Assembly: GCA_041662125.1 (NCBI GenBank)
Contig: JBAZTA010000005.1
Span: 52,978-116,977 of the forward strand
Direction of reading: 5' to 3'
DNA: 64,000 nucleotides
Origin: Candidatus Omnitrophota bacterium
Lineage (GTDB): Bacteria; Omnitrophota; Gorgyraeia; Gygaellales; Profunditerraquicolaceae
Numbering within the stretch: the first letter of the stretch is position 1; every line of letters begins with the position of its first letter. Shown here in pieces: positions 8,651 to 58,902 of the stretch. The translations under genes were made by a program, and so were the position numbers. The notes under the pieces were generated by a model. It worked only from the letters and a program-made list of their open reading frames with translations, did not search any database and was not told the DNA's origin.

Positions 8651-9442
8651 ATGTTCAAACGCGCTTTATTTTATTATGATCTTGCCCGATTGCAAAATGA
8701 AGGATGGGGTACGGTTTATGAATATCTGGATAAGCACCTGTTTTTAAAAAAGAAAATATCAAAAACTAAGATAAAAAGAATTTTAATTGCCGGGTTGCCT
8801 GAGAAATACGGCTATAGCCTTGATTTCTTAATGCTTGCTCAGGAGCTGGGTGTGTTGTGTACTGTAATCGATGACCGAAAAGACAGGATAGAAAGAACCA
8901 AAGAATTCGTTACCGGGCTTGCTTTAAAGAATAAGCTGGATCTGGGTTTGATCAAATTTATTGTTTCAGGCAATAGCATTATTCCTCATGATGTTGATGA
9001 TCATCCTTTAAAATATGACCTTGTTTTAAGCTGTGAGGCTATTCAGCGTTATTCTGATCCTCAGCAATTAGAGATATTAAAAAAATTAGCTTTTGTTTCA
9101 GATTCCGTATTTATTTTTATGCCAAACGCGCTGCATAGCGGACATGCCAGAAGCGGGCTTGCTACTGTAGATATAAAACAGATATCTTCCTGGAAAAAAG
9201 AGTTGGGGGGAGAGTATTCGCTCGAATACGGATTTATTGATTTTGCCCCCTGGAGCTCAGGCATAACCGGCAAAAGGAACCTGCCAGGCGTATTAGCAGG
9301 ATGTAATTTAATCCAAAGATTAATGGCGTTTATAATTGAATTGTGGCTTGGGTTGGTAAAATATATGCCGGCACGCTTTTGTGTTAATAATAGCCATATA
9401 ATTTATGCCCATATAAGTAACAGGAGCTGTTCAAAGAATTGA
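8651..9442 (+). CDS. Hypothetical protein (possible Rossmann-fold methyltransferase-like)
   Basis: 263-aa ORF tightly packed between flanking genes. ILIAGLPEKYG ... VIDD ... YDLVLSCEAIQ pattern loosely resembles class I MTase motifs I-III. The fit is weak. Confidence 0.4.
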   Translation: MFKRALFYYDLARLQNEGWGTVYEYLDKHLFLKKKISKTKIKRILIAGLPEKYGYSLDFLMLAQELGVLCTVIDDRKDRIERTKEFVTGLALKNKLDLGLIKFIVSGNSIIPHDVDDHPLKYDLVLSCEAIQRYSDPQQLEILKKLAFVSDSVFIFMPNALHSGHARSGLATVDIKQISSWKKELGGEYSLEYGFIDFAPWSSGITGKRNLPGVLAGCNLIQRLMAFIIELWLGLVKYMPARFCVNNSHIIYAHISNRSCSKN

Positions 9443-20245: not shown

Positions 20246-20246
20246 T

Positions 20247-37350: not shown

Positions 37351-39272
37351 TGGATATTTCTATAGTTGTTCCGACATTTAACCGTAAAAATAAGCTTAAA
37401 TCCTGCCTGGAATCGATTTTTGCCCAGGATTACCCCTTAGAGCGTTTTGAAATTATTGTTGTTGATGACGGCTCTACTGATGGGACCAAGGACATGGTTG
37501 CAGCATTAAAGCCTGCTTTTCCTCATCTGCGTTATTACTATCAGGAGAATCAAGGGCCGGCAGCTGCCAGGAATTTCGGGGTCAGGCAGTCAAAAGCTGA
37601 CATCGTAGGGTTTACTGATGACGATTGCCGATTAAGCAGATCATGGGTGCGCGCGATGCTTGCATCGTATGCTTTAGAGCCTTTGGCAGACGTTGTCGGA
37701 GGCAAAACAAGCGTTGATGCGCGCAACATAAAAGCGCTGGTGAGCCAGTCTTTAAGTGACGGCGCGATATTCGCGGATATAGGGGTTGAGAAAAAGATAA
37801 TTTTTTTCCCGACCTGTAATGTCTCTTATAAAAAAAGCTCTGTGAACGCAGAATTTGCTCAGTCATTCTGTTTTCCTGCCGGTGAAGACCTGGAGTTTTT
37901 CTGGAGGCTGTATAAGGGCGGAAGCAGGTTTGTTTTTAATAAAAATATCGCAATCACTCACAATTGCCATATGAACCTGAGGTCGTTTATTCGTCAGGCA
38001 TACTTATACGGCAGAGGTAATTTCCGGGTTAAGTATGTCCATCAAGACCATCCTTTATTAAAAGAAATAAAAACGAACAATATTTTTTGTTTCTTCGGGG
38101 CAACAATACTTAATTTATTGAAAATACCGCGTTTTGCTTATACGTTAGGTTTTTCTTTGGTGAAAAAACACCGCATCCGCGGGTTTTATACGCGGCTGCA
38201 GGTTTTTGCGTTTTTTATACTGCATAAGGTCGTGTATTTGCTTGGCAATTTTGTCGAATATTTCACGGTCAGAAAAATGGCTCAACCAGGACAAAGCGTT
38301 GATTGCCCTTCTATAACAAACAGCCTTCTCAAGCCGGAAACTATTATATTGGATATTACGCATCGCTGTAATCTTTTCTGCACAATTTGCGATATAAGAA
38401 AAGATAAACCTATTCTTGAATATTCCACGCAGGAAGTAAAAGATCTTATCGTGCAGGCAATTGACTGGGGAGTTCATGATTTTGTGCTCTCCGGCGGGGA
38501 AGCGCTCATGCGCAAGGATATTCTCTCAATCCTTGATTTTGTTAAGGAAAAGAAGTATTGCGTTGGTTTGCTGACAAACGGAATTTTGCTCACTCAGGAT
38601 TTCCTCAGGGTACTTTTGCCGTATTTAACTTCTGGTTCGTTATCGCTCTGTATCTCTCTTGATAGTTTGCGCGCCGCTGTTCATGACGAGATCCGCGGTC
38701 TGCCGGGGTGTTTTGATAAAACATTCGCGGGTATTACAATGCTTGCGCAGCAAAAACAAGTTTTTCCGAACATAAATTTTAACGTGATCACGATCATACT
38801 CAACGAAAACTTAGAAGAGCTGCAGACGATCGCCAGTACTGTTTTATCGTTGAATGCTAATTCTTTGCAATTTCAGCCTTTACTTTCCAATAACCGGATC
38901 TTGAAAGACAGGGCAGATAAGGTTAAATATTGGGTGCCTCGAGAACGAATACCGGTCCTTGATAAAGCCATCGATGCTCTGGTCGTCTTTAAAAAGGCTA
39001 ACCCCGCGTTTATGAGGAATTCTGAAAACAATCTTGAATTAGTAAAGAAATATTTCCGGGGAAGCCTTGTAAATTCTGATATACAGTGCCATAACGCGGC
39101 AAAAACTATGCTTATTGCCTATACCGGCGATATAACGACTTGTTTTGATTGTTATGGAAATATACGCAAAGAGCCCTTAGAGCAAATCTTTCATGCTCCT
39201 GCGGCAGAGCAGGCGCGCCGGAAAGCTGCCGGTTGCGCAGCACCGTGCCTGCTGCCATGTTTTACCGACTAA
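37350..39272 (+). CDS. Fusion protein: N-terminal family 2 glycosyltransferase + C-terminal radical SAM/SPASM domain
   Basis: N-term ISIVVPTFNRKNKLKSCLESI...EIIVVDDGSTDGT...FTDDDC (GT2). From ~aa 330 ILDITHRCNLFCTICDI (CX3CX2C), LSGGEALMRKD and C-terminal Cys cluster (CHNAAKT...TCFDCYGN...CAAPCLLPC). Single uninterrupted ORF of 640 aa. Confidence 0.75.
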   Translation: MDISIVVPTFNRKNKLKSCLESIFAQDYPLERFEIIVVDDGSTDGTKDMVAALKPAFPHLRYYYQENQGPAAARNFGVRQSKADIVGFTDDDCRLSRSWVRAMLASYALEPLADVVGGKTSVDARNIKALVSQSLSDGAIFADIGVEKKIIFFPTCNVSYKKSSVNAEFAQSFCFPAGEDLEFFWRLYKGGSRFVFNKNIAITHNCHMNLRSFIRQAYLYGRGNFRVKYVHQDHPLLKEIKTNNIFCFFGATILNLLKIPRFAYTLGFSLVKKHRIRGFYTRLQVFAFFILHKVVYLLGNFVEYFTVRKMAQPGQSVDCPSITNSLLKPETIILDITHRCNLFCTICDIRKDKPILEYSTQEVKDLIVQAIDWGVHDFVLSGGEALMRKDILSILDFVKEKKYCVGLLTNGILLTQDFLRVLLPYLTSGSLSLCISLDSLRAAVHDEIRGLPGCFDKTFAGITMLAQQKQVFPNINFNVITIILNENLEELQTIASTVLSLNANSLQFQPLLSNNRILKDRADKVKYWVPRERIPVLDKAIDALVVFKKANPAFMRNSENNLELVKKYFRGSLVNSDIQCHNAAKTMLIAYTGDITTCFDCYGNIRKEPLEQIFHAPAAEQARRKAAGCAAPCLLPCFTD

Positions 39273-40439: not shown

Positions 40440-41864
40440 ATGAGAAACGCTCAAAAACAGGCAGAGTTAGTTTTGGTTATGTGCCCCTTATGGGGCGTAT
40501 CTCAGCCTCCGATCAGTATCAGTTACCTCAGTGGGTTTTTGCAGAAGCATGGTGTCAGTGTCAGATGTTTTGATTTTAGTTCGGCGTTGTATAGGGTTTT
40601 TCCGGAAAAGAAGTGCTGGGACTTGAATTTCCCGGAATATTTTATGTCTCCTGAACTTTTTAACCGGCATATCAAACCTGTTTTAAATCCGGTTATCAGC
40701 GATTGGGCTGGGCAAATTCTGGCGTTGCGTCCTTCTGTGGTAGGGTTTTCTTTATTTATGTCAAATATGTCTGCGAGTTTGCTTTTAGCTCAGGAGCTCA
40801 AAAAACGTGCCCCTGATCTTCTAATCGTCGCGGGAGGCTGTGAAGTCACCAGGATCAAACGCATATACGTTGACGGCATACAGCGCAGAGCGCATCTGGA
40901 TACCGATGTTATAGACAGCGGTGTTTTTGACCTGTTTATTGACGGGGAGGGGGAACAATCACTCTTGGAAATAGTTTCTTTGATCAGGAAAAATGAGGAT
41001 TTTCATTTGATCAAGGGCGCAGTGTTCCGCCAAAATGGGAAGTTTGTTGCCAACCCGCCGCAAGAGCTCATGGCTAACCTCGATATCGTGCCGCCTCCTG
41101 ATTTCCATGATTTTTTTCTTGATGATTATACAAGGCGCAGCCTGCCGATCGTTACCAGCCGCGGTTGCGTGAACCGGTGTACTTTTTGTGCCGACAGCCC
41201 TTTGTGGAAAGTCTACCGGTACCAGTCAGCGGAAAAAGTTTTTAACGAATTCTCTTTCTTATCCAAAGAATACGGCATCTCTGATTTTGAAATAGTCGAT
41301 TCAACGTTTAACGGTAATATCGAGCGCGTGGATAAGCTCTGCGCGTTGATCATTAAGTCTGGCTTAAAGATCCGCTGGGCAGCAAAAGCGACGCTGCGCA
41401 AAGAAATGGATCATGCTTTGTTATGCCATATGCAAAAAGCCGGTTGCGTCGATCTTGCTTATGGCGTAGAAAGCGGCTCCTACCGTGTGCTGCAGGATAT
41501 GCGTAAGAATACCGATCTGCTTGAGATCAAAAGGATCATACGAGATACCTGGAAAGCAAAGATCCGGGTGAATAGTTTTTTCCTGATCGGTTACCCGACA
41601 GAAACGGAAGATGATTTTCAGTTAACCCTTGATTTTGTCAAGGAAAACGCGCGCTATATTCATCGTTTTGACCAGATCACCGGTTGCCATTTAGAAGAAG
41701 ATTCTTATTTGAGCCTTAATGCACAGCAATATGGTATCGAGATAAAAGATGACGGGTGGTGGAGCCCTGTGAGCACGCCTGCTATACGTAAAGACCGGCT
41801 CAATAGGTTTCGTGAACTTGCGCGCAAACTCCATGCGCATTATCGCTGTGAAGTGCAGCTGTGA
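40440..41864 (+). CDS. B12-binding (class B) radical SAM enzyme
   Basis: TSRGCVNRCTFCADS, GVESGSYRVLQDM. N-terminal B12-binding-like domain. Confidence 0.75.
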   Translation: MRNAQKQAELVLVMCPLWGVSQPPISISYLSGFLQKHGVSVRCFDFSSALYRVFPEKKCWDLNFPEYFMSPELFNRHIKPVLNPVISDWAGQILALRPSVVGFSLFMSNMSASLLLAQELKKRAPDLLIVAGGCEVTRIKRIYVDGIQRRAHLDTDVIDSGVFDLFIDGEGEQSLLEIVSLIRKNEDFHLIKGAVFRQNGKFVANPPQELMANLDIVPPPDFHDFFLDDYTRRSLPIVTSRGCVNRCTFCADSPLWKVYRYQSAEKVFNEFSFLSKEYGISDFEIVDSTFNGNIERVDKLCALIIKSGLKIRWAAKATLRKEMDHALLCHMQKAGCVDLAYGVESGSYRVLQDMRKNTDLLEIKRIIRDTWKAKIRVNSFFLIGYPTETEDDFQLTLDFVKENARYIHRFDQITGCHLEEDSYLSLNAQQYGIEIKDDGWWSPVSTPAIRKDRLNRFRELARKLHAHYRCEVQL

Positions 41865-45496: not shown

Positions 45497-45913
45497 GTGA
45501 CTATGAAAAGAAAAAAGATGCCGACAACACGTGTTTTAGATCTTACCGCGATAGCGGTCCTGGTGGTGGGGCTTGTATTATGCGGCTATGTGCTTTTTTT
45601 TAAGTTTATCGGTGTCAAGTCGGTGCTCATCAGTATTGTAACATTTCTGATGAGCGTTGTTTTAGCCGCGTTGATCCGCATGATCGGGATAATGGGTGAG
45701 TTCCTGTATACGATCACAGAATCTTTGTTTACCCTGAATCAATCGGTTGTATCATTGTCTGATGATGTTTTACGCCAGGAGCTATCGGAAATCTCGGAAA
45801 TAAAGCATGGTATTGAGAAAATAAGTTCAGACACAAAAGATATTACCGTGAGTATTGATGATATTAATGTTTTTTTTCAGAAAATAGAGCGGCATTTAGA
45901 CCTGAAAAGATAA
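45497..45913 (+). CDS. Small membrane protein, hypothetical
   Basis: AAAAGGAG RBS upstream. Two TM helices, then a predicted coiled-coil tail. Confidence 0.5.
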   Translation: MTMKRKKMPTTRVLDLTAIAVLVVGLVLCGYVLFFKFIGVKSVLISIVTFLMSVVLAALIRMIGIMGEFLYTITESLFTLNQSVVSLSDDVLRQELSEISEIKHGIEKISSDTKDITVSIDDINVFFQKIERHLDLKR

Positions 45914-47271
45914 TGCGCATTGTATTGTTGAACCTTCCCTGGAGAAAACAGGGTTGTTTTGGGGTCAGGGCCGGCTCTCGCTGGCCTTTCACGGTTAAAC
46001 CGCGCACCGAGGGGCCCCTGCAGTATCTGCCGTTCCCTTTTTTCCTCGCATACGCTACAGCGCTTCTGAATCAGCAAAAACACAACGCGATGCTTATTGA
46101 CGCGATCGCGCAAGGGATGGATGAACATCTCATCCTCGACAAAGTTCGATTGCTTATGCCGGAGCTTATGGTCATAGAAACCTCAACTCCAAGTTTCGAT
46201 AATGATATCAATATTATTAAAGGCCTTGCGCGCGCGGTTCCCGCATGTCAGATAGTCTTGTGCGGCCCTCATGCCAGCGTGTATCCGAAATTTATCCTTG
46301 AACAGTATGATTTTGTTTCATTTGTTTTAGTCGGCGAGTATGAAATGACTCTCGCCGATTTAGCTAAAGCCAGAAGCCAAGGGCTGCCTTTGAGATCGGT
46401 GCCGGGTTTAGCTTTTCGTAAAGGCAAAGAGGTCTTTGTTACTGCTCGAAGAAAGACGCTCGGCGACCTTGATAGCTTGCCCTTGCCGGAAAGGGAATCC
46501 CTTCCCCTATATAATTATAATGATGGATTTTGCGGATTAGCTCAGCCTAATGTGCAGATGGTTTCCAGCCGCGGGTGCCCGTTCAATTGTACCTATTGCC
46601 TTTGGCCGCAAACACTGTATTTTGAACGCAAATACAGGAAACGAAACCCCGTCAAAGTAATAGATGAAATGGAGTTTTTGATCAAGAATTACCGGTTTAA
46701 AGCGGTATATTTCGACGATGACTTGTTTAATTATGATAAGGATCATGTCGCGGGGATTTGCCGTGAGATCGTTAAAAGAGGGATCTCTATCCCCTGGGCA
46801 GTAATGGCGCGCGCGGATTTGATGAATGAGGGTATGCTTGAACAGATGTCTGAGGCTGGGTTATACGCGGTAAAGTATGGCATTGAAGCGGTCAATAAGA
46901 ATATCTTAGGTTTGTGCAGGAAACAAATGAACTTGAAGAAAGCCTGTTCTATGATCGCCTTTACCAAAAAACTCGGCATAAAAATTCATTTAACCTTTTG
47001 TTTGGGGTTACCCGGAGAAACAAACACTACGCTTCGGGAAACCCGTGATTTCATCGATGCTGTAAAGCCTGATTCTTTGCAATTTTCTTTTGCAACGCCG
47101 TTTCCCGGGACGCGGTATTTTGATTTTGTGGAAAAAAAAGGGTATCTTGTATCGCGTGACTGGGGAGATTATGATGGAAATTTGCGGTGTATCGTTAAGA
47201 CGGCTGCGTTAAGCGCGCAGGAATTAGAAGGTGTTCGCAATGATCTCTATCGTTATTATAACCTGCAATAG
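45913..47271 (+). CDS. B12-binding (class B) radical SAM enzyme
   Basis: SSRGCPFNCTYCLWP, GIEAVNKNILGL. N-terminal B12-binding-like domain. Confidence 0.75.
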   Translation: MRIVLLNLPWRKQGCFGVRAGSRWPFTVKPRTEGPLQYLPFPFFLAYATALLNQQKHNAMLIDAIAQGMDEHLILDKVRLLMPELMVIETSTPSFDNDINIIKGLARAVPACQIVLCGPHASVYPKFILEQYDFVSFVLVGEYEMTLADLAKARSQGLPLRSVPGLAFRKGKEVFVTARRKTLGDLDSLPLPERESLPLYNYNDGFCGLAQPNVQMVSSRGCPFNCTYCLWPQTLYFERKYRKRNPVKVIDEMEFLIKNYRFKAVYFDDDLFNYDKDHVAGICREIVKRGISIPWAVMARADLMNEGMLEQMSEAGLYAVKYGIEAVNKNILGLCRKQMNLKKACSMIAFTKKLGIKIHLTFCLGLPGETNTTLRETRDFIDAVKPDSLQFSFATPFPGTRYFDFVEKKGYLVSRDWGDYDGNLRCIVKTAALSAQELEGVRNDLYRYYNLQ

Positions 47272-48106
47272 CGCTGCCTGCATTAAAGCGTGCTTGGATT
47301 CTCTGCGCGCGCAGGCAGGGGCCGGTTTTGAGGTTATTATTGTCGATAATGGATCGACAGATGCGACGCGGGATATAATAAAGGAGTCTTACCCGCAAGC
47401 TGCCCTGATCGCCAATACGGTTAATGTTGGAGCGGCGGGAGCGCGTAATCAAGGGATCAATGCTGCGCGGGGCAGCTGGGTACTTACTTTGGATTCGGAT
47501 ATTGTCTTAGGAGAACAGTTCCTGTCGCGTTTTGATACGTATTTGAGCGGATTACCTTTCGGCGTAGGGATGGTGCAGCCAAAAATACTGGACAGTAAAG
47601 CAAAGATTATTTATTCCTGCGGGATCCATATGTCCTGGTTTTTTCGTTTTTTTGATATCGGTTTAGGCAGCGCGGATAGTGAAAAATTTGGCAAAGAGCA
47701 AGATATTTTCGGGGTATGCTCAGCTGCTTCTTTTTATAGACGGCAAATGCTTTCTGATATCAAAGAATCATACGGTTATTTCGATGAGCGGTTTTTCTTT
47801 CTGGTCGAAGATGTTGACCTATCATGGAGAGCTCATGCCCGTGGCTGGAAAGCGCGGTATTTTCCTGATGCCGCCTGTTTTCATAAAGGCAATAGTTCTG
47901 GTTTTAGCCGTAAGGCAAGGCAGTACCTTTGCTGGCGTAACCGGAAATTGATGATCGCTAAAAACCAGCACGTATTTTTCCGCAGGGCAATATCTTTTGT
48001 TTTATATGACGCCCCCCGCGCGATATTCCTTTTCTTTGCTAACAGCTATGTGCGCCGCGCGCTGCTTCATATCGGGGAGACAACCAAGGATAAGCTGACC
48101 AGATGA
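47240..48106 (+). CDS. Family 2 glycosyltransferase
   Basis: MISIVIITCNSAACIKACLDSL...EVIIVDNGSTD, DSD motif. GAAGGTG RBS 7 nt upstream of the ATG at 47240. The ORF-track start at 47231 is GTG. Confidence 0.7.
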   Translation: MISIVIITCNSAACIKACLDSLRAQAGAGFEVIIVDNGSTDATRDIIKESYPQAALIANTVNVGAAGARNQGINAARGSWVLTLDSDIVLGEQFLSRFDTYLSGLPFGVGMVQPKILDSKAKIIYSCGIHMSWFFRFFDIGLGSADSEKFGKEQDIFGVCSAASFYRRQMLSDIKESYGYFDERFFFLVEDVDLSWRAHARGWKARYFPDAACFHKGNSSGFSRKARQYLCWRNRKLMIAKNQHVFFRRAISFVLYDAPRAIFLFFANSYVRRALLHIGETTKDKLTR

Positions 48107-48918
48107 GTTCAGATCCGTATTTAAAAGAATTAGAAAGCCAGAGTATTTATGTAATCAGGGAAGCGTATTGGGAATATAAGGATTCTTTAGCCCTCTTATG
48201 GAGTATGGGTAAAGATTCAACCGTCCTCGTGCACCTGGCGAGGAAAGCGTTTCTTGGAACGGTTCCTATCCCGGTCATACATATAGATACGACATTTAAA
48301 TTCCAACAGATCTATGATTTCCGGAAGCGTTACGCCGGGAAATGGGGATTAAAGCTGGTTGTCGCGCGCAATGAGGAAGCGATCCTTGATCGTATGTCGC
48401 CAAAGCTGGGAAGGTTTGAGTGCTGCAATGCTTTAAAAACAGAAGCGCTTAAACAGATCGTAGCAAAACGCGGCTTGAAAGCTTTACTGGTTGCTATACG
48501 CAGGGACGAGCACGCGATCAGAGCGAAAGAAAGGTATTTTTCTTCCCGCGATAAGGATTTTAAATGGGATTACGCTCACCAGTCCCTGGAATTGTGGGCG
48601 GAGTATTATAAGTCCCAAGGAAAAAAAGAAACGCATTTCCGCGTCCATCCGTTGCTGGGGTGGAGAGAGATCGATATATGGAGGTATACGAAACAGGAAA
48701 AACTTCCTGTTGTCAGCCTTTATTTCGCGCGAAAAGGGAAACGCTACCGCAGTATCGGTTGTGAATGCTGCTGTCAGCCGGTTGCTTCCCAAGCGCGCAG
48801 CCTTGAGAAAATCGTTCGGGAAATCAGTTCTACTTCTATCGCGGAGAGATCTGGCCGCATCCAGGATAAAGAAAAAGCGTACATGATGCAGAAATTGCGG
48901 TCATTAGGATACATGTAA
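48103..48918 (+). CDS. cysD: Sulfate adenylyltransferase subunit 2
   Basis: Near-collinear with E. coli CysD: LESQSIYVIREA, LLWSMGKDSTVLVHLARKAF (PP-loop), IDTTFKFQQIYDFRKRYAGKWGLKLVV, C-terminal LGWREIDIWRY. Confidence 0.9.
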   Translation: MSSDPYLKELESQSIYVIREAYWEYKDSLALLWSMGKDSTVLVHLARKAFLGTVPIPVIHIDTTFKFQQIYDFRKRYAGKWGLKLVVARNEEAILDRMSPKLGRFECCNALKTEALKQIVAKRGLKALLVAIRRDEHAIRAKERYFSSRDKDFKWDYAHQSLELWAEYYKSQGKKETHFRVHPLLGWREIDIWRYTKQEKLPVVSLYFARKGKRYRSIGCECCCQPVASQARSLEKIVREISSTSIAERSGRIQDKEKAYMMQKLRSLGYM

Positions 48919-48923
48919 ATACG

Positions 48924-50165
48924 ATGAATAAATATTTAAGAATAGCAGTAACGGGGGATGTTGATTCCGGTAAATCTACTTTGATCGGCAGGGTTTTATC
49001 TGAACTCAGCCCTGTTTCTGCCCATATGATGGATGAAGTCTCCCAGGCCTGTAAGCGCTTGGGAAGAGATTTTGAATTTGCTTATTTGTTAGATAGCCTG
49101 GAAGAAGAGCGGCAGGAACAACGCACGATTGATACCACGCAGGTTTTTTGTAAGGCGCGTAATGGCTTGGAAATCGTCTTTATTGATGTTCCCGGACACC
49201 GGGAATTGATTAAAAACATGCTCAGCGGAACTTCGCTGGCTGATGGGGCGATTTTGGTAGTTGATGCCGGCAAGCCAATAGCAGAACAGGCCAGGAGGCA
49301 CGCGTTTATTTTAGCATTTTTAGGTATCAGGCATGTTATGGTGGCTCTGAATAAGATGGATGCAATCGGGTTTCAGGAGCAGGAGTTTGAAAGGATAAAG
49401 GCCGGCATACAAGCATCCTTAAAACCAATAGGAATAGACCCGGAATTCTTTGTTCCGATATCGGCAAAAGAGGGGGAGAATCTTCTTAAGCCATCAAAGC
49501 GCATGAAATGGTATACTGGTGATACCCTTATTGACGCCTTAAGCTCTGTTCGTTTCAGGAAAAAGCCTCATGCAGCGCGTCCTGCACTTGAAAGCAAAGA
49601 ATTCGTTTTTTTAGTCCAGGATATTTATCAGCTTAAAAAGAAAAAGATCGCTGTGGGGCTGTTAGTGCTTGGCAGTATTGGTTTAAAATCATCCTGTTGC
49701 GTCTTGCCTCTGAATACGAAGAACAGGGTAGAGGAAATATTAGAATTGGGTAGATCAAGGAAGAGCGTTCGTTCGCCTGAAGGGCCGGGATTAGTGTTGA
49801 GGGATATGTCTTGCCTGAAGCGGGGGGATATTGTTTGTGTTTCTAAAAATCTTAACGTTACGTTTGAGTTCTCGGCAAAGGTTTTTTGTGTAAAACAACT
49901 GCGGAAAAATAAGAGTATTAATCTCAAGTGCGGGCCTCAAGAAACGGTAGCGCATGTTTCCCGGATAACGCATGCCTGGGAAACTTCAGGTTTACGCGAA
50001 ATAAATATTGACCAGGGGGTGGTAGAAGAAAATAATATTGCAGAGGTAAGAGTTTCTGTTGAACAGAGAATAGTATTCGCAGAACGAAGTTTCACCGGCA
50101 GTTTGGGAAGGTTTGTTTTACGCGATCACCAGGGAGATATCGAGGCAATAGGAATAATTCAATAG
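48924..50165 (+). CDS. cysN: Sulfate adenylyltransferase subunit 1 (GTPase)
   Basis: G1 GDVDSGKST, LDSLEEERQEQRTID, G3 DVPGH, G4 NKMD. Collinear with E. coli CysN. Length 413 aa. Confidence 0.85.
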   Translation: MNKYLRIAVTGDVDSGKSTLIGRVLSELSPVSAHMMDEVSQACKRLGRDFEFAYLLDSLEEERQEQRTIDTTQVFCKARNGLEIVFIDVPGHRELIKNMLSGTSLADGAILVVDAGKPIAEQARRHAFILAFLGIRHVMVALNKMDAIGFQEQEFERIKAGIQASLKPIGIDPEFFVPISAKEGENLLKPSKRMKWYTGDTLIDALSSVRFRKKPHAARPALESKEFVFLVQDIYQLKKKKIAVGLLVLGSIGLKSSCCVLPLNTKNRVEEILELGRSRKSVRSPEGPGLVLRDMSCLKRGDIVCVSKNLNVTFEFSAKVFCVKQLRKNKSINLKCGPQETVAHVSRITHAWETSGLREINIDQGVVEENNIAEVRVSVEQRIVFAERSFTGSLGRFVLRDHQGDIEAIGIIQ

Positions 50166-50171
50166 GAGCGG

Positions 50172-51374
50172 ATGGTTAAGTTTTTATTTAATTATATTGA
50201 TCCGGGGCCTGGTTTTATATTTGGGCAGAATCCTTCGCTTTTCTTGGGGGTGCTGGCTGGCCTGCTTGGCAGCCTGGTGTTTTTGATGCAACTTGGGTTT
50301 AAATTTCTGAAAAGGTTTTTTGTCGCAGGTATTTTACTCGTAATCCTTATAATCATGGGAGTTTTGATCATGCATACTATCTCGCCGCGTAACAAACGAA
50401 AAGTCGTTATTTTAGGGATTGATGCGATGTCCGCGGATATTGTCGAGCAACTCATGAGAGAAGGCAAACTGCCGAACCTTGCTTCTTTGAAGCTGCAAGG
50501 CTCGTATGCGCGCCTTGCCACGACTAATCCGAGTGAATCGATTGTTGCCTGGTCTAGCTTTTCGACCGGGCAAAACCCGGGTAGCCACGGGATTTTTGAT
50601 TTTATTATGCGTAACCCCGGGAAATATAGCCCCTATTTGGCTCTCAATGAGATTACCAGCAACGCTGATGGCAGTATGTTTATTACGAATAGAAAGCAGG
50701 GAGAGAATTTCTGGAATATTCTTTCCCGCAATAAGATCCCTTCGTATATTTATTTTTGTCCGAACACTTTCCCTCCTGAACGGATCATGGGGAAGATGAT
50801 TTCAGGTATGGGTGTCCCTGATATTTTAGGAACGATGGGGAAATTCTCTTTTTATACGACAAAGCCATTGACCCCGGCAGATAAAGAGAGCCGCGGCAGG
50901 GTGATCCAGGTTAGCGCAGATAACAACAGTATTGCGGCTTATTTGTACGGGCCGATGGTTGCTTCAAGCAATGCGCCTGCTGAATCTAAAATTCCGCTCA
51001 AGATAATTCTAAAACCCTCAGAGAATAAAGCGGCCATAACGGTTGGAGGCAAAAACGTTGTATTAAAAAAAGGCGCGTGGAGTGATTGGGTTGAAGTATC
51101 CTTTGATATTGGAGGGTTTCGTAAAGCGTATGGAATTACCCGGATGTACCTTAAATCGGTTTCTCCTGATTTTGAGCTTTACCTGAGCCCTGTTAATTTT
51201 GACCCGCAGCGCCCGCTTTTCAAGATCTCTTTTCCCAGTGGGCTGTCCCGTGAATTAGCCAAAGATAACGGCTTGTTTTACACTCAGGGGATGCCTTATG
51301 ATACCTGGGCTTTGACTGAAATGCGGCTTGATGAAGATGCATTCCTGGAATTGGTTGATGAGATCCCCGGTTAA
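50172..51374 (+). CDS. Nucleotide pyrophosphatase/phosphodiesterase (NPP, alkaline-phosphatase superfamily) N-terminal part, membrane anchored
   Basis: TM helix, then VVILGIDAMSADIVEQL and TTNPSESIVAWSSFSTGQNPGSHGI (NPP metal site 1 / Thr nucleophile region). Terminated by TAA at 51372-51374. Confidence 0.6.
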   Translation: MVKFLFNYIDPGPGFIFGQNPSLFLGVLAGLLGSLVFLMQLGFKFLKRFFVAGILLVILIIMGVLIMHTISPRNKRKVVILGIDAMSADIVEQLMREGKLPNLASLKLQGSYARLATTNPSESIVAWSSFSTGQNPGSHGIFDFIMRNPGKYSPYLALNEITSNADGSMFITNRKQGENFWNILSRNKIPSYIYFCPNTFPPERIMGKMISGMGVPDILGTMGKFSFYTTKPLTPADKESRGRVIQVSADNNSIAAYLYGPMVASSNAPAESKIPLKIILKPSENKAAITVGGKNVVLKKGAWSDWVEVSFDIGGFRKAYGITRMYLKSVSPDFELYLSPVNFDPQRPLFKISFPSGLSRELAKDNGLFYTQGMPYDTWALTEMRLDEDAFLELVDEIPG

Positions 51375-51419
51375 CATGAGAAAATTTGTTCCCGTGAATT
51401 AAAAAAACATTCATCAGGG

Positions 51420-52235
51420 GTGTTCTTTTATTATTTCGAGGTTCTGGATATCATTTCGCACATGTTTTGGCGGTATCAAGACACGCAGCATCCCCTCTAT
51501 GAAAATGATCCCCGCTATAAAGGGATCATCAATGGGTATTACGAAAAAGCAGATCAGATGGTTGGTAAAATACTTAAGCAGCTTGATAAAGATACTATAG
51601 TGATCATTCTTTCTGACCATGGGTTTACTGCTTTTCGTAGAGCCGTTAATCTTAATCGATGGCTTTTAGAACAGGGGTATCTTAGCCTCAAACCGGGTAC
51701 AGATGAAAGCAAAGGTTTTTTAGAGAATATCGATTGGCAAAAGACAAAAGCATATGCTTTGGGGTTTGGCGGCATTTATCTGAATAAAACAGCCAGGGAG
51801 TATTATGGGATTGTTTCTGACTCGGACGTTTTGGCGCTTAAAGATGAACTTAAAAGGAGGCTGCAGGTATTCATAGATCCGCACACGGGGGATAATGTTG
51901 TTCATGCTGTGTATCTGCAGGAAGAAATATTCCAGGGGCTGGCCTCTGGCAATGCTCCGGATCTATTCGTCGGGTTTAATGCGGGATATCGCGCGTCATG
52001 GCAGACAGCGTTAGGCGCAGTACCCAAGACGCTTATTGATGAAAATAAGCGAAAATGGAGCGGGGACCATTTGGTCGACCCCCATTTAGTGCCGGGCGTG
52101 ATCTTCAGTAACAAAAAAATCGCCGTGTCAGCGCCTTCGATAATTGATATTTTTCCGACTATTTTGAGGTTATATGGCGTTCGTTTTCCGGAAGATATAC
52201 CGGGAAAGCCTTTGTTGAGCAGCGATGATACTTGA
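51420..52235 (+). CDS. NPP-family C-terminal part (same frame as 50172-51374, separated by one in-frame TAA)
   Basis: VLDIISHMFW (D-x-x-x-H) and IVIILSDHGF (DHG metal site 2). Frame continuity with the upstream ORF: both starts are on the same phase (coordinate mod 3 = 0). Confidence 0.55.
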   Translation: MFFYYFEVLDIISHMFWRYQDTQHPLYENDPRYKGIINGYYEKADQMVGKILKQLDKDTIVIILSDHGFTAFRRAVNLNRWLLEQGYLSLKPGTDESKGFLENIDWQKTKAYALGFGGIYLNKTAREYYGIVSDSDVLALKDELKRRLQVFIDPHTGDNVVHAVYLQEEIFQGLASGNAPDLFVGFNAGYRASWQTALGAVPKTLIDENKRKWSGDHLVDPHLVPGVIFSNKKIAVSAPSIIDIFPTILRLYGVRFPEDIPGKPLLSSDDT

Positions 52236-55540: not shown

Positions 55541-57226
55541 ATGAAGGTCCTTGGTGTATCTTGTTTTTACCACGATTCAGCGGCATGCTTGATATCAGAC
55601 GGAAAGATCGTCGCGGCCGCTCAGGAAGAACGCTTCAACCGGCGTAAAAACTCGCCTGATTTTCCTATCAACGCGATCAATTATTGCCTTCAGCAGGACA
55701 GCGCGTCCGTTTATGATATTGATTACATCGGATTTTATGAAAAGCCTTTCTTGAAATTTTCCCGCGTTATTGTAAGCCATCTGCAATCCTTTCCTTTTTC
55801 TTTGCGCAATTTTATCGATACTGTCCCTCATTGGCTGGCTGACCGCCTTATTATGCCCCTTGTTTTCAAACGTGAATTAGGGTTTGAGGGGAAGGTTTTG
55901 TTTATTCCTCATCATATGTCTCATGCGGCAAGCGCTTTTTTTTCCTCTGGATTTAATGAGGCTGCTATCTTGACTGTAGATGGCGTGGGAGAATGGGCGT
56001 CGGTAACCTGCGGGGTGGGCAAAGGCAATCAAATCACGATCAATAAAGAATTGCGTTTTCCTCATTCCCTGGGACTTTTATATACGGCAGTGACGACGTT
56101 CCTTGGTTTTCAAGCGTTGGAAGGAGAAGGGACCGTTATGGGATTAGCGGCCTTGGGAAAACCGGCGTATGTGGATAAATTTAAATCCATCATTTCTCTT
56201 AAACAAGACGGTAGTTTTCATCTGGATATGCGTTATTTCGGGTTCTTTAACGAAGGCCGCATGATGTACACTCAAAGGTTTGTGCGGGCATTCGGCAGTC
56301 CCCGCTTGCCGGGTGGAAAGTTAGAAGAGCGGCATTGTGATATTGCCTGTAGCCTGCAGGCGGTTACTGAAGAGGCGCTTGTCAATCTAGCCTGCGGCCT
56401 TTACCATGATACCGGAGTTGACAGCTTATGCCTGGCAGGAGGGGTATGTTTGAATTGTGTGGCAAACCAGAAGATCAAAGAAAAGACGCCTTTTAAAAGG
56501 ATTTTTATTCAACCTGCTGCTGGCGATAGCGGCGGGGCGTTAGGCGCGGCTGCCTATATTTATTTTAACCTTCTTAACAACCAGCCGGACAACCTGATGG
56601 TAGACGCTTACCTTGGGCCTGAATTCAGCGCCGCGCAGATAAAAAGGGTTTTAGTCAATAATGCAGTTGATTTTAAGGAATTTGAGGAAGCTTCGTTATG
56701 TAAATATATCGCGGCAAAGATTTATGAGAGTAAGATCATCGGCTGGTTCCAGGGCCGGATGGAGTTTGGCCCCCGGGCGTTGGGTAACCGTTCCATCCTG
56801 GCTAATCCTTGTAATCCTGACATGAAAGAATTGCTGAATAAGAAAGTCAAGGATCGAGAGCCATTCCGGCCGTACGCGCCGCTGGTGCTGGAAGAAAAAG
56901 CCGCGGATTATTTCCAAATGAGCGGACCGTCTTCGTTTATGTTATTGGCGCCACAGGTGAGAAAAGATAAGGTTGCGGTTATCCCGGCGGTTACGCATTA
57001 CGATGGTTCCGCCCGGGTCCAGACAGTGAATAAAAATGGTAACCCGAAATTGTGGCAGTTGGTTAAAGAATTTGAAAATCTGACCGGGGTGCCGGTTATC
57101 ATCAATACATCGTTTAATCTGCGGGGGCAACCGATTGTCTGCAGTCCTGAAGATGCGCTCGGAAGTTTTCAAAGTAGCGCGATGGATATCTTGGTCTTAG
57201 GAAATTTCGTCATAGAAAAGTCATGA
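55541..57226 (+). CDS. Carbamoyltransferase, NodU/CmcH/TobZ family (second copy)
   Basis: MKVLGVSCFYHDSAACLISDGKIVAAAQEERFNRRKN. Near-canonical family N-terminus. 561 aa. Confidence 0.85.
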   Translation: MKVLGVSCFYHDSAACLISDGKIVAAAQEERFNRRKNSPDFPINAINYCLQQDSASVYDIDYIGFYEKPFLKFSRVIVSHLQSFPFSLRNFIDTVPHWLADRLIMPLVFKRELGFEGKVLFIPHHMSHAASAFFSSGFNEAAILTVDGVGEWASVTCGVGKGNQITINKELRFPHSLGLLYTAVTTFLGFQALEGEGTVMGLAALGKPAYVDKFKSIISLKQDGSFHLDMRYFGFFNEGRMMYTQRFVRAFGSPRLPGGKLEERHCDIACSLQAVTEEALVNLACGLYHDTGVDSLCLAGGVCLNCVANQKIKEKTPFKRIFIQPAAGDSGGALGAAAYIYFNLLNNQPDNLMVDAYLGPEFSAAQIKRVLVNNAVDFKEFEEASLCKYIAAKIYESKIIGWFQGRMEFGPRALGNRSILANPCNPDMKELLNKKVKDREPFRPYAPLVLEEKAADYFQMSGPSSFMLLAPQVRKDKVAVIPAVTHYDGSARVQTVNKNGNPKLWQLVKEFENLTGVPVIINTSFNLRGQPIVCSPEDALGSFQSSAMDILVLGNFVIEKS

Positions 57227-58902
57227 AAGCATTCAGACAGCGCTTGATCGTCATCTTGATTGGCATAGCGGTAACTCTTTTTGTGTTAGAGGCCGGATTG
57301 CGCATACTCGGATCGTTCTACGCAAAGCGCGCTTCTCGAAAATCAAAAGCTGATAGTTGCCAATATACGGTTTTATGCGTGGGGGATTCTTTTGTCTTCG
57401 GATTTGGGGTGCCTTTTGAGCAGTCTTTTCCTGTTCAACTGCAGGTTTTATTGGATAATAAAAATCCGGAGAGGAGAATTAAGGTTGTCAACCGGGGGGT
57501 CGGCGCGCAGACAACGACACTGCTTTTGCAAGGTTTGCCGTACGAGATCAGTACGATTGATCCCGACCTGGTCATTGTATTAAGCGGGGGCGCGAATCAA
57601 TGGAATTCCACGGGTTATTATACTTACCTTAAAGGAAACACAGTTAAGGCAATGCTTCAGGATTCTTTCAGTAGAAGCGCAATAGTTAAGTTGGTTAAGC
57701 TTTTATCTTTTAATATAAGAAATAAAATGAAGGAAATTACATGTCAAAGGGATAATTTTGATATGCAATTCGCTGGTGGTGCGTTTGGAAAAGAAAGGGA
57801 GCCGATGCGTGATACCTTGTATAATCTTAATCTTGGAATGCGCTATATTGATGAAAGGGATTATGCCAGGGCCAGGGATTTGTTCCAAAGGATGATCGCA
57901 AGGGATCCTCAGGATACGGCGGGATATTTTGGCATGGGGACTGTTCTTACCATCCAGCAGTTTTATACGCAAGCAACAGGATTTTTCCAGCAAGCAATCG
58001 AGTTGGATCCTGCTGATGCCAGGAGTTATGGAGGGCTGGCTTTGTGTTACAAAGAAAATCGGGATTATCAAAACGCCTTGGCATGGTTTAAGAAAGCTCT
58101 CAGATTATCTCCTGAGGACAGCCGGATCTATTGGAATGTAGGCAGTATTTATCTGGAGCAGCGTGAATTTGCCGAAGCGGAAAAATGGTTTTCTGAGGCG
58201 ATTACCCGTAATCCGCGTGATAGCCGCGCTTATTATTATATGGGGAAATTTTATAAAGATCAGGGGAAATATGTTGAGGCATTGCAATGGTTTGATAAAG
58301 GTTTGAGAGTGGATCCTCAGGATTGGTCGAACTATTACGGGTTTGCCTGCGTTTATTCTGAGAGGAATGAGTTCGGGCAGGCAGTACCCTGGATAAAACA
58401 AGGGATCAAAGCCGCTCCTGCTTCTTTAGAGAACCTTAATTATAGGTTAATCGTCTATGTCTTCCGGCAGGTTATGCCATATGACGAAGTGGTTACATTT
58501 ATCCGCGGAATCATGCAAAATGCGGGGGTGCCGCGCGATGTGTGGGAGTTCTATAATGCAAGAGATATCGGTCAAAAAGAGGGTGCATGGCTTGAACATG
58601 ATTTAGATAGTATTGCTCGAATATGTAAAGAGAAAAATATTCCGGTCATGTTTCAGAATTATCCCTTTGGTTTTGATTTCGCCTCTTTAGTCCTTCAAAA
58701 GGTCGCCGAAAAGAATTCGATTCCTTTTGTGGATAACCGCCGGGTTTTTGATGCGTTGTGGGAAAAGGGCGAAAAACGGGGGGATTATTCTGTCCCTGAC
58801 GGCCATTGTAATGGAAAAGGCTATGGGGTTATCGCGAATAATATTTATGAGAAGTTAATAGAGCTTGGATGGTTTGATCCCGGCAAAAAAATAGGGAACT
58901 AA
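57223..58902 (+). CDS. SGNH/GDSL-type hydrolase with inserted TPR-repeat domain (paralog of 2265-3851)
   Basis: Block I VLCVGDSFVFGFG, block II NRGVGAQTT, block III LSGGANQWNS, block V C-terminal VPDGHCNG (DxxH). TPR repeats between. Start overlaps the carbamoyltransferase stop (ATGA). Confidence 0.7.
   Translation: MKAFRQRLIVILIGIAVTLFVLEAGLRILGSFYAKRASRKSKADSCQYTVLCVGDSFVFGFGVPFEQSFPVQLQVLLDNKNPERRIKVVNRGVGAQTTTLLLQGLPYEISTIDPDLVIVLSGGANQWNSTGYYTYLKGNTVKAMLQDSFSRSAIVKLVKLLSFNIRNKMKEITCQRDNFDMQFAGGAFGKEREPMRDTLYNLNLGMRYIDERDYARARDLFQRMIARDPQDTAGYFGMGTVLTIQQFYTQATGFFQQAIELDPADARSYGGLALCYKENRDYQNALAWFKKALRLSPEDSRIYWNVGSIYLEQREFAEAEKWFSEAITRNPRDSRAYYYMGKFYKDQGKYVEALQWFDKGLRVDPQDWSNYYGFACVYSERNEFGQAVPWIKQGIKAAPASLENLNYRLIVYVFRQVMPYDEVVTFIRGIMQNAGVPRDVWEFYNARDIGQKEGAWLEHDLDSIARICKEKNIPVMFQNYPFGFDFASLVLQKVAEKNSIPFVDNRRVFDALWEKGEKRGDYSVPDGHCNGKGYGVIANNIYEKLIELGWFDPGKKIGN

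What the first reader, a model, noticed from the sequence alone, without database searches (positions are those of the whole stretch)
48103..50165. cysD-cysN sulfate-activation pair embedded in the glycan locus without visible APS kinase or sulfotransferase
CysD and CysN are recognisable almost residue-by-residue against the E. coli proteins. They sit between a GT2 gene and an NPP-family gene, not in a cysteine-biosynthesis context. This suggests APS/PAPS supply for sulfation of the glycan. However, no CysC (APS kinase) domain is fused to CysN (413 aa only) and no classical sulfotransferase motif (5'-PSB/3'-PB) was noticed in the window. The transferase may be non-canonical, one of the unassigned proteins, or encoded elsewhere.
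Basis: partly seen in the sequence, partly recalled or inferred. Interest (0 to 1): 0.6.

Follow-up and report, generated by a model that had tools for sequence, protein, structure and literature searches.

The report
Sulfate-activation genes wired to phosphatase-like enzymes
A divergent cysD-cysN sulfate-activating pair sits inside a sugar-polymer gene cluster of an uncultured Omnitrophota bacterium. In relatives it is almost always joined to uncharacterised alkaline-phosphatase-type enzymes rather than to the usual kinase and sulfotransferase, which hints at an undescribed way of adding sulfate to glycans.

Summary
They are true CysD/CysN homologues but divergent. Identity to enterobacterial proteins is 37% and 30%, and both score below the NCBIfam equivalog cut-offs. 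No APS kinase or canonical sulfotransferase family hits any of 48 window ORFs.

The new result is context. The pair belongs to a conserved cassette: GT2, CysD, CysN, then an alkaline-phosphatase-superfamily "NPP-like" protein (COG3379, uncharacterised).
- The cassette occurs in 8/8 independent Omnitrophota loci, often with Thr-nucleophile sulfatase-like proteins and a TauE/TSUP permease.
- NPP-like genes lie within 5 kb of short-type cysDN (adjacent in two) in Pirellulales, Lachnospiraceae and Micrarchaeota.
- No NPP-like or sulfatase-like gene lies near cysDN in 0/68 canonical control loci.

Best reading: a dedicated APS synthase feeding glycan sulfation. The alkaline-phosphatase-type enzymes are the best candidates for the missing sulfuryl-transfer or processing step. 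This is inferred, not shown.

In this genome the NPP-like gene carries one in-frame TAA (51372-51374), and the sulfatase-like gene found in the closest relative is absent. The rest of the genome could not be checked for cysC or cysH.

The parts
47231..48106 (+). GT2 glycosyltransferase (291 aa). Its stop overlaps the cysD start (ATGA). It is a conserved member of the cassette.
   Evidence: Pfam Glycos_transf_2 1.9e-28. The junction sequence was read. Orthologues of 44-54% identity lie beside cysDN/NPP-like in L001, L003, L089, L091, L094, L097, L101 and L102. In L090 the orthologue is fused to a sulfatase-like domain.
48103..48918 (+). Short-type CysD (sulfate adenylyltransferase small subunit, ATP pyrophosphatase fold), 271 aa.
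   Evidence: The PP-loop SMGKDS is present. Identity is 51-60% to short CysD of Clostridium, Lachnospiraceae and Pirellulales, and 37% to enterobacterial CysD.
48924..50165 (+). Short CysN-like GTPase (413 aa) with no APS kinase domain.
   Evidence: The G1, G3 and G4 motifs are invariant in the family alignment A1. The exact protein is on record as an Omnitrophota MAG 'GTP-binding protein' (P0001).
50172..52235 (+). NPP-like alkaline-phosphatase-superfamily gene (COG3379 type, about 688 codons, N-terminal two-helix membrane hairpin). It is interrupted by one nonsense codon.
   Evidence: PF01663 matches both halves. Both halves are in the same frame. An intact 689-aa orthologue exists in L001. 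Metal ligands and the Ser/Thr nucleophile are invariant in the family. An AF2 model of orthologue P0122 has pLDDT 80 and the NPP / alkaline phosphatase / PhnA fold.
51372..51374 (+). In-frame TAA replacing a Glu codon (GAA) of the orthologues.
   Evidence: The window reads ...DEIPG*HEKIC... where L001 reads ...DEITGEHEKIC.... TAA is the commonest ordinary stop in the window, 25 of 48 genes. The public annotation also gives the 400-aa stump (P0138).

Best explanation
cysD-cysN here encode a divergent 'short-type' GTP-coupled ATP sulfurylase that makes APS. The pair is not a free-standing housekeeping operon. It is the core of a conserved glycan-modification cassette: GT2, CysD, CysN, then a COG3379 NPP-like enzyme. 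In relatives the cassette also carries Thr-nucleophile sulfatase-like enzymes and a TauE/TSUP anion permease.

Proposed flow:
1. Sulfate is taken up.
2. CysDN adenylylates it, with GTP hydrolysis driving the reaction and PPi hydrolysis pulling it.
3. The activated sulfuryl group is passed to the glycan built by the neighbouring glycosyltransferases.

Neither an APS kinase nor a P-loop sulfotransferase accompanies the pair. A bimetallo alkaline-phosphatase-superfamily enzyme with an intact Ser/Thr nucleophile almost always does. That enzyme, or those enzymes, are therefore the most likely catalysts of the sulfuryl-transfer or sulfate-ester-processing step, possibly taking sulfate from APS itself.

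Status of each step:
- Shown: the homology, the motifs, the operon coupling and the conserved synteny.
- Inferred: APS synthesis, use for the glycan, and any sulfotransferase role of the AP-type enzymes.

In this particular genome the NPP-like gene has a nonsense codon and the sulfatase-like gene is missing. The downstream step may therefore be impaired, or the stop may be an assembly or strain artefact.
For: Homology and intact catalytic motifs of CysD and CysN.

The short-type CysD also occurs with CysN::CysC-length fusions in Clostridium. This suggests that the subtype is an ordinary sulfurylase.

Operon coupling: a 4-nt ATGA overlap, then 5-nt and 6-nt spacers.

Conserved context:
- All 8 independent Omnitrophota loci (CysN 40-66% identity) have a PF01663 or sulfatase-like gene directly beside cysDN. 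They lie among GT2, GT4 and radical-SAM genes. None has cysH, cysI or cysK nearby.
- A second NPP-like gene is inserted between cysD and cysN in L089 and L097.
- The orthologue of the window's GT2 is fused to a sulfatase-like domain in L090.
- A TauE permease lies directly upstream of cysD in L003, L006, L096, L097 and L099.

Other phyla: NPP-like genes accompany short-type cysDN in Pirellulales (L013, adjacent), Micrarchaeota (L018, flanking on both sides), Lachnospiraceae (L012, about 4 kb downstream) and further Omnitrophota (L008, L010).

Control: 0 of 68 canonical cysDN loci have an NPP-like or sulfatase-like gene within 10 kb.

Reverse test: 19 of 31 loci anchored on close NPP-like genes carry cysD/cysN. 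The two top-120 hit lists share 43 contig lengths.

Enzyme competence: the NPP-like family keeps D84, S/T123, D427, H431, D483, H484 and H634 invariant and has the NPP / alkaline phosphatase fold.

Literature: classical sulfotransferases can use APS in vitro (PMC10638397), so APS is a chemically competent donor.
Against: - No biochemical evidence exists for any sulfuryl transfer by a Ser/Thr alkaline-phosphatase-superfamily enzyme of this family.
- Several partner proteins look extracytoplasmic and so would not meet cytoplasmic APS directly. These include a lipoprotein-type signal in the L089 insert, signal anchors in L097 and L099, and signal anchors in most sulfatase-like proteins.
- A more distant NPP-like subfamily (49 soil and peat loci) is never next to cysDN.
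- L006 has a CTP_transf_like::APS_kinase fusion 10 kb away, so PAPS may be made in some relatives.
- L008 has an ASST-type arylsulfotransferase beside cysN.
- The rest of this genome could not be searched for cysC, cysH or sulfotransferases.
- Here the NPP-like gene is interrupted.
Confidence: 0.45

Rival explanations
1. Conventional PAPS route. CysDN only supplies APS. An APS kinase and a P-loop (PF00685/PF13469-type) sulfotransferase are encoded elsewhere in the genome. The NPP-like and sulfatase-like proteins add or remove phospho-substituents, as EptA, LtaS, OpgB and PIG-N-type transferases do. They would be linked to cysDN only because all of them decorate the same glycan.
For: All characterised glycan sulfotransferases are PAPS-type (PMC11625862; PMC13291958). 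PF00884 and PF01663 domains are known phospho-alcohol transferases (established knowledge). NCBIfam shows weak EptA and LtaS similarity for the sulfatase-like protein. Many of these proteins look periplasmic. L006 has an APS-kinase fusion 10 kb away.
Against: No APS kinase or sulfotransferase lies in 64 kb here, nor within 10 kb of cysDN in 7 of 8 Omnitrophota loci. The linkage of NPP-like genes to cysDN is tighter than general 'same locus' membership: immediately adjacent, inserted between cysD and cysN, and recurring in other phyla and in non-glycan contexts.
Confidence: 0.25
2. Sulfur scavenging and assimilation. The alkaline-phosphatase-type proteins are extracytoplasmic sulfate-ester hydrolases. 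TauE/TSUP imports the released sulfate. CysDN is the organism's only, housekeeping, sulfurylase feeding APS reductase and cysteine synthesis encoded elsewhere.
For: CysDN is normally assimilatory. The partners include the PF00884 'Sulfatase' family, and a TauE permease is adjacent. Signal anchors are present on many partners. No second cysDN is known for this genome.
Against: 10 of 10 sulfatase-like proteins have Thr in place of the Cys/Ser of the C/S-x-P-x-R formylglycine motif, and they lack the Arg. No anaerobic sulfatase maturase equivalog was found. Some partners lack signals. cysD is translationally coupled to a GT2, and in one relative that GT2 is fused to the sulfatase-like domain. No cysH, cysI or cysK is seen in any locus.
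Confidence: 0.15
3. The module is decaying or non-functional in this genome, or the CysDN-like pair activates another oxyanion (selenate, molybdate, a phosphonate). In that case no sulfated glycan is made here.
For: The NPP-like gene carries a nonsense codon, and the sulfatase-like gene present in the closest relative (L001/L002) is missing. CysN scores below every CysN model cut-off and close to EF-1alpha.
Against: There is only one lesion. The rest of the NPP-like gene and both cys genes are intact and 66-81% identical to orthologues. The GTPase and PP-loop motifs are intact. A TSUP/TauE neighbour in relatives points to a sulfur oxyanion.
Confidence: 0.1

Closest known systems
CysD/CysN sulfate-activating complex (E. 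coli, P. syringae 1ZUN, M. tuberculosis)
   Same: Two adjacent genes: a PP-loop ATP pyrophosphatase-fold subunit and an EF-Tu-like GTPase subunit. Catalytic motifs are present.
   Different: Identity is only 37% and 30%. CysD lacks a segment of about 30 aa, and CysN lacks the N-terminal extension and any CysC domain. Both are below equivalog cut-offs. The context is glycan genes rather than cysH/cysJI/cysC.
NodP/NodQ-NodH (rhizobial Nod-factor sulfation) and other dedicated sulfate-activation copies in glycoconjugate clusters
   Same: A cysDN paralogue placed in a glycoconjugate biosynthesis cluster to supply activated sulfate (established knowledge).
   Different: NodQ carries the APS kinase domain, and NodH is a P-loop PAPS sulfotransferase. 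Neither is present here. Alkaline-phosphatase-superfamily genes take their place.
Nucleotide pyrophosphatase/phosphodiesterase (NPP), PafA/SPAP alkaline phosphatases and phosphonoacetate hydrolase
   Same: The same fold and the same bimetallo ligand set with a Ser/Thr nucleophile.
   Different: Identity is 10-14%. The protein has an inserted beta-rich domain of about 200 aa and an N-terminal membrane hairpin with a conserved Y[IV]DPGxGF motif. It has no named NCBIfam family and shows operonic linkage to cysDN.
Periplasmic PF00884 transferases (EptA/MCR, LtaS, OpgB) and S1 formylglycine sulfatases
   Same: The sulfatase-like partners in relatives share the PF00884 fold, an N-terminal membrane anchor and a Thr nucleophile like EptA and LtaS. 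Overall sequence is closest to S1 sulfatases.
   Different: They have no C/S-x-P-x-R motif, so they are not formylglycine sulfatases. They have a single anchor helix rather than the 5-TM domain of EptA and LtaS. None is present in this window.
PAPS-independent arylsulfate sulfotransferases (ASST) and carrier-relay sulfation (Cpz8/Cpz4 in caprazamycin biosynthesis, recalled from memory)
   Same: The idea of sulfation without a PAPS-type final transferase. An ASST-family gene does sit between cysN and the NPP-like gene in L008.
   Different: No ASST family hit exists in this window. ASST is a beta-propeller with a His nucleophile, not an alkaline-phosphatase fold.

Membership tests
CysD (sulfate adenylyltransferase subunit 2) | PAPS_reduct/ATP-PPase fold with the PP-loop SxGKDS | tested here: met
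   PF01507 4e-37. SMGKDS is at residues 34-39. 1ZUN_A matches at E 2e-56.
CysD (sulfate adenylyltransferase subunit 2) | Score above the curated NCBIfam cut-offs | tested here: inconclusive
   It passes the PRK05253 subfamily model (298 > 195). It fails TIGR02039 (227 < 397) and the equivalog NF009214 (235 < 413).
CysD (sulfate adenylyltransferase subunit 2) | ATP sulfurylase activity (APS formation) | not testable with these tools
   This needs an enzyme assay. The same short subtype is paired with CysN::CysC-length fusions in Clostridium.
CysN (sulfate adenylyltransferase subunit 1, GTPase) | G1-G4 GTPase motifs plus EF-Tu-like domains II/III, encoded next to cysD | tested here: met
   GDVDSGKST, DVPGH and NKMD are present. 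GTP_EFTU and GTP-eEF1A_C are detected. The start is 5 nt after the cysD stop.
CysN (sulfate adenylyltransferase subunit 1, GTPase) | Score above the curated CysN model cut-offs and clearly better than translation factors | tested here: not met
   TIGR02034 scores 228 < 336 and PRK05124 scores 221 < 590. EF-1alpha scores 212. In the PDB, CysN matches at 1e-46 and aEF1A at 3e-46.
CysC / APS kinase | PF01583 P-loop kinase domain, fused to CysN or separate | tested here: not met
   CysN ends at 413 aa. No PF01583 hit occurs in 48 window ORFs. The rest of the genome was not searched.
Canonical PAPS sulfotransferases (PF00685, PF03567, PF13469, PF09037) and ASST (PF05935/PF14269) | Family HMM match, or 5'-PSB/3'-PB motifs | tested here: not met
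   No hit at E<=1e-3 in any ORF of at least 110 aa. No hit at E<=5 in the unassigned ORFs. Three unassigned ORFs have no PDB sequence match.
NodPQ-type dedicated sulfate activation | A cysDN paralogue in a glycoconjugate cluster, together with an APS kinase and a PAPS sulfotransferase | tested here: not met
   The first feature is met. The kinase and the sulfotransferase are absent from the window.
Alkaline phosphatase superfamily, NPP-like branch (PF01663) | Bimetallo site ligands (D, D-x3-H, D-H, H) plus a Ser/Thr nucleophile; alpha/beta core fold | tested here: met
   D84, S/T123, D427, H431, D483, H484 and H634 are invariant in 30 sequences. Foldseek matches NPP, PafA and PhnA at E about 1e-9. 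In the window the gene is split by a TAA.
S1 formylglycine sulfatases (for the sulfatase-like partners in relatives) | C/S-x-P-x-R motif converted to formylglycine | tested here: not met
   Thr occupies the nucleophile position in 10/10 sequences and the Arg is absent. No anSME equivalog was found.

The most novel reading that the evidence does not exclude
COG3379 NPP-like enzymes, and/or the Thr-type sulfatase-like enzymes, form a new class of sulfotransferase that is independent of PAPS. They would take the sulfuryl group from APS made by the adjacent short CysDN. Transfer would be either direct, via a sulfo-Ser/Thr enzyme intermediate in the cytoplasm, or through a membrane carrier handed to the extracytoplasmic family members, by analogy with the lipid-donor logic of EptA and LtaS. 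The sulfate would end up on a glycan.
Probability: 0.3. Interest if true: 0.85.

Novelty: new variant of a known kind. Interest (0 to 1): 0.62.

Why it matters
Reviews list four sulfotransferase classes, none with an alkaline-phosphatase fold (PMC11625862). PAPS is treated as the universal donor.

Here a sulfate-activating pair is repeatedly wired, across phyla, to uncharacterised alkaline-phosphatase-type enzymes, with no kinase and no classical transferase. This gives a concrete, testable candidate for APS-dependent glycan sulfation.

It would also assign a first function to a very large uncharacterised family: COG3379, with thousands of members in Omnitrophota alone.

If the link proves indirect, the result still shows that these ultra-small, uncultured bacteria invest in a dedicated sulfate-activation step for a heavily tailored surface polymer.

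Tried and rejected
- Hidden sulfotransferase or kinase among the unassigned ORFs. I ran Pfam at E<=5 and PDB sequence searches and found nothing. ORF 8651-9442 looks like a Rossmann methyltransferase by eye. ORF 20145-21269 is a weak alkaline-phosphatase-like protein that lacks the first Asp.
- Radical SAM/SPASM neighbours acting as anaerobic sulfatase maturases. Rejected: no equivalog hit (the best, TIGR03942, scores 48 bits against a cut-off of 349), and the sulfatase-like proteins have no formylglycine motif.
- The genome-contig scan anchored on CysN returned mostly canonical CysN because of the generic pattern GKSTLIGRxL. I reused those loci as the control set.
- Extending along the contig to look for cys genes failed. 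One edge protein gave only a 7.6-kb contig with nothing relevant, and the other is not on record.
- H. volcanii Agl7 (sulfation of DolP-hexose, PMC3892788) was considered as a possible precedent. Its protein family could not be established from the papers held, so it is not used as evidence.
- The E. faecium Mn-arylsulfatase was checked as a possible non-formylglycine precedent. It uses Cys-derived formylglycine, so it is no precedent.
- The apparent 486-aa 'CysD fusion' in L117 is an ORF-extension artefact.
- The Inositol_P neighbour in L129 is ambiguous between HisN and CysQ.
Full report
**1. The observation**

Both ORFs are exactly at the reported coordinates on the + strand: 48103-48918 (271 aa) and 48924-50165 (413 aa).

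The first ORF is a PAPS_reduct/ATP-pyrophosphatase-fold protein.
- Pfam scores it at 4e-37.
- It has the PP-loop SMGKDS.
- Its best solved relative is P. syringae CysD (1ZUN_A, E 2e-56), from which it lacks about 30 residues.

The second ORF is an EF-Tu-type GTPase.
- Motifs G1 (GDVDSGKST), G3 (DVPGH) and G4 (NKMD) are intact, and it has an eEF1A-like C-terminal domain.
- Its best solved relative is CysN (1ZUN_B, 1e-46), only marginally ahead of archaeal EF-1alpha.

- Identity to enterobacterial CysD is 37%, and to CysN 29-30%.
- CysD passes only a subfamily model in NCBIfam.
- CysN is below every CysN cut-off.

CysN has no APS-kinase domain.

I scanned 48 window ORFs of at least 110 aa against Pfam. 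I rescanned the unassigned ones at E<=5 and some of them against PDB sequences. No APS kinase, no P-loop sulfotransferase and no ASST family was found.

**2. Organism and locus**

The exact CysN-like protein is on record from a Candidatus Omnitrophota MAG, on a 183-kb contig (P0001).

The window is one long, mostly co-directional glycan locus. It contains:
- a WecA-type GT4, a GT4 and six GT2 genes;
- Wzm/Wzt ABC export genes and a Wzy_C protein;
- two carbamoyltransferases and a WbuX-like amidotransferase;
- about a dozen radical-SAM enzymes, including B12-dependent ones and a GT2::rSAM-SPASM fusion.

cysD is translationally coupled to the upstream GT2 by an ATGA overlap. cysN starts 5 nt after cysD. 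The next gene starts 6 nt after cysN, behind a GGAG.

**3. The downstream gene**

The "NPP-family gene" appears as two ORFs, 50172-51374 and 51420-52235. They lie in the same frame and are separated by a single TAA at 51372-51374.

The 66%-related genome L001 reads GAA (Glu) at that position and encodes an intact 689-aa protein. TAA is the commonest ordinary stop in the window (25 of 48). This is therefore a nonsense codon in the assembly, and the public annotation also gives a 400-aa stump (P0138).

Everything else in the gene is conserved. The lesion is either recent or a sequencing or strain artefact.

L001/L002 also carry a sulfatase-family gene directly after the NPP-like gene, and the window lacks it. 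Here the NPP-like gene instead converges on, and overlaps, the reverse-strand GT2.

**4. Conserved cassette**

I fetched the surroundings of CysN-like relatives of 40-66% identity. In all 8 independent Omnitrophota loci, cysD-cysN is flanked directly by alkaline-phosphatase-superfamily genes.
- In 7 of 8 loci a 610-690-aa PF01663 gene lies immediately downstream.
- In L003 a PF00884 sulfatase-like gene lies there instead.
- L089 has a second PF01663 gene between cysD and cysN, as does L097 in a later set.
- One to four sulfatase-like genes lie nearby.
- A TauE/TSUP permease lies directly upstream of cysD in several loci.
- The surrounding genes are GT2, GT4 and radical-SAM genes, never cysH, cysI or cysK.

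The window's GT2 (47231-48106) has orthologues of 44-54% identity beside the cassette in nine loci. In L090 it is fused, through one hydrophobic helix, to a sulfatase-like domain.

An APS-kinase domain was seen only once. It is fused to a cytidylyltransferase-like domain, 10 kb from cysN in L006.

**5. Controls and the reverse test**

A species-representative genome scan returned mostly canonical cysDN, which I used as controls. I built HMMs from the cassette proteins and searched all ORFs.
- 0 of 68 canonical loci (CysD about 300 aa) had an NPP-like or sulfatase-like gene within 10 kb.
- Five of the eleven short-type CysD (262-273 aa) loci in that set had NPP-like genes within 5 kb:
  - L008 and L010 (Omnitrophota);
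  - L013 (Pirellulales), immediately upstream;
  - L018 (Micrarchaeota), on both sides;
  - L012 (Lachnospiraceae), two copies about 4 kb downstream, in what looks like a small-molecule or glycolipid cluster.
- Short-type cysDN without such neighbours also exists, in Clostridium (with CysN::CysC-length fusions), Dehalococcoidia and Bathyarchaeia.

The short subtype as such is therefore an ordinary sulfurylase lineage of anaerobes. This supports APS synthesis as its activity.

I then anchored a metagenome scan on the NPP-like family.
- 19 of 31 loci of the close subfamily carried cysD/cysN. Most of the others were short contigs. Clear negatives were L098, L104 and L118.
- None of 49 loci of a more distant soil and peat subfamily carried cysD/cysN.

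The linkage is therefore strong and specific for this subfamily, but it is not universal for the whole family.

**6. What the partner proteins are**

The NPP-like family is annotated only as "alkaline phosphatase family protein" or "AlkP superfamily phosphohydrolase/phosphomutase" (COG3379).
- It has no NCBIfam family.
- Only one paper in the library mentions the COG, and it is irrelevant.
- The family is more conserved than CysN: 53-77% against 40-49% identity.
- All bimetallo ligands and a Ser/Thr nucleophile are invariant.
- An AlphaFold model (pLDDT 80, pTM 0.81) matches NPP, ENPP, PafA/SPAP and phosphonoacetate hydrolase at 10-14% identity.
- It has an inserted beta-rich domain and an N-terminal two-helix membrane hairpin whose topology is ambiguous.

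The sulfatase-like partners resemble S1 sulfatases overall, but they have Thr at the nucleophile position in 10/10 sequences and lack the C/S-x-P-x-R motif. They are not formylglycine sulfatases. They look more like Thr-nucleophile transferases of the EptA/LtaS kind.

None of the window's SPASM radical-SAM proteins is an anaerobic sulfatase maturase by NCBIfam.

**7. Mechanism and its limits**

The parsimonious reading is as follows. CysDN makes APS. The cassette serves modification of the glycan, not cysteine synthesis. The alkaline-phosphatase-type enzymes carry out the step that a kinase plus a P-loop sulfotransferase perform elsewhere.

Two points give this chemical plausibility.
- The superfamily is known for phosphoryl/sulfuryl promiscuity (established knowledge).
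- APS is a competent donor for classical sulfotransferases in vitro (PMC10638397; also noted in PMC13291958).

There is a real difficulty.
- Several partners look extracytoplasmic. These are the lipoprotein-type signal on the L089 insert, the signal anchors on L097 and L099, and the signal anchors on most sulfatase-like proteins.
- Others are signal-less: the small NPP-like proteins of L010, L012, L013 and L018, and two sulfatase-like proteins in L088.

Direct use of cytoplasmic APS therefore cannot apply to all of them. Either a relay through a carrier or a role in processing sulfate esters outside the cell has to be considered.

An ASST-family gene between cysN and the NPP-like gene in L008 shows that PAPS-independent sulfuryl transfer is part of this genomic neighbourhood in at least one relative.

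**8. Rivals**

- (a) cysC and a classical sulfotransferase lie elsewhere, and the alkaline-phosphatase-type enzymes add phospho-substituents.
- (b) The genes form a sulfur-scavenging and assimilation unit: sulfatase-like hydrolases, TauE import and housekeeping CysDN.
- (c) The module is decaying here, or it activates another oxyanion.

Each is weighed in the structured sections of this report. None can be excluded without the whole genome or biochemistry. I could not obtain the rest of the genome.

**9. Verdict**

The most useful new fact is the conserved, cross-phylum coupling of short-type cysDN to COG3379 and PF00884-type enzymes in the absence of kinase and classical transferase.

The pair itself is a new member of a known family. 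The cassette is a new variant of dedicated sulfate activation. A truly new sulfotransferase class is possible, at about 0.3, but unproven.

Noticed in passing
window 51372-51374: A single in-frame TAA splits the otherwise well-conserved NPP-like gene. The orthologue has GAA at this position. The deposited annotation also shows only the 400-aa N-terminal stump.
   Followed up: yes
window 52170-52235 vs L001 13302-14681: The closest relative has a Thr-type sulfatase-like gene between the NPP-like gene and the reverse-strand GT2. In the window it is absent, and the two convergent genes overlap by 66 nt.
   Followed up: partly
window 34630-37350: A Wzt/TagH-like ABC ATPase carries a C-terminal extension of about 650 aa. 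The extension has no Pfam, NCBIfam or PDB-sequence match. It may be a glycan-terminus recognition domain.
   Followed up: partly
window 5172-47271 (e.g. 37350-39272, 40440-41864, 45913-47271): There is an unusual density of radical-SAM enzymes (about 12) inside a glycan locus. They include B12-binding ones (HpnJ/BchE-like) and a GT2::radical-SAM/SPASM fusion. None reaches an equivalog cut-off.
   Followed up: partly
window 20145-21269: This secreted 374-aa ORF has a weak alkaline-phosphatase-superfamily (PF01676) match at E 0.009. The first metal-binding Asp appears to be replaced ('ITISGVR'). It may be a degenerate family member.
   Followed up: no
window 2265-3851 and 57223-58902; 14967-16673 and 55541-57226: Two SGNH-lipase::TPR proteins and two NodU/CmcH-type carbamoyltransferases occur as duplicated pairs at the two ends of the locus.
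   Followed up: no
L008 2586-4217: An ASST-family arylsulfotransferase-like gene (PF05935/PF14269) lies directly between cysN and a reverse-strand NPP-like gene in another Omnitrophota genome.
   Followed up: partly
L006/L007 20865-21209 (gene runs off the locus): A 292-aa fusion of a cytidylyltransferase-like domain with an APS-kinase domain lies 10 kb from cysDN, next to methyltransferases and B12 radical-SAM genes.
   Followed up: no
L012 7033-21083: A Lachnospiraceae locus reads MFS, AraC, cysD, cysN, HAD::radical-SAM, alpha/beta hydrolase, GT2, two signal-less NPP-like genes, an AMP-ligase, an O-methyltransferase-like gene and PIG-L. It looks like a biosynthetic cluster for a possibly sulfated small molecule or glycolipid.
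   Followed up: partly
L123-L171 (e.g. L129 6801-14428, L160 8089-15233): A distant soil and peat subfamily has two large NPP-like paralogues in tandem, separated by a conserved ORF of about 270 aa with no family. It also has a small NPP-like gene and a 560-690-aa sulfatase-like gene. It never has cysDN. In L129 an IMPase-family (HisN/CysQ-ambiguous) gene lies next door, and ORFs of similar size and position in L131 and L140 were not scanned.
   Followed up: partly
L116 2236-3075 (-): A very divergent 279-aa CysD paralogue keeps the C-terminal ...ERSGRQQDKE...LRSLGYM motif. It sits divergently next to an NPP-like gene, with no cysN in the 8.4-kb contig.
   Followed up: no
N-termini of the NPP-like family (window 50172-50400): A conserved N-terminal motif Y[IV]DPGxGF-x-F-x-Q is followed by two hydrophobic helices. 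The helices are separated by a Lys/Arg-rich loop and followed by another Lys/Arg-rich stretch, so the topology cannot be called from charge bias.
   Followed up: partly
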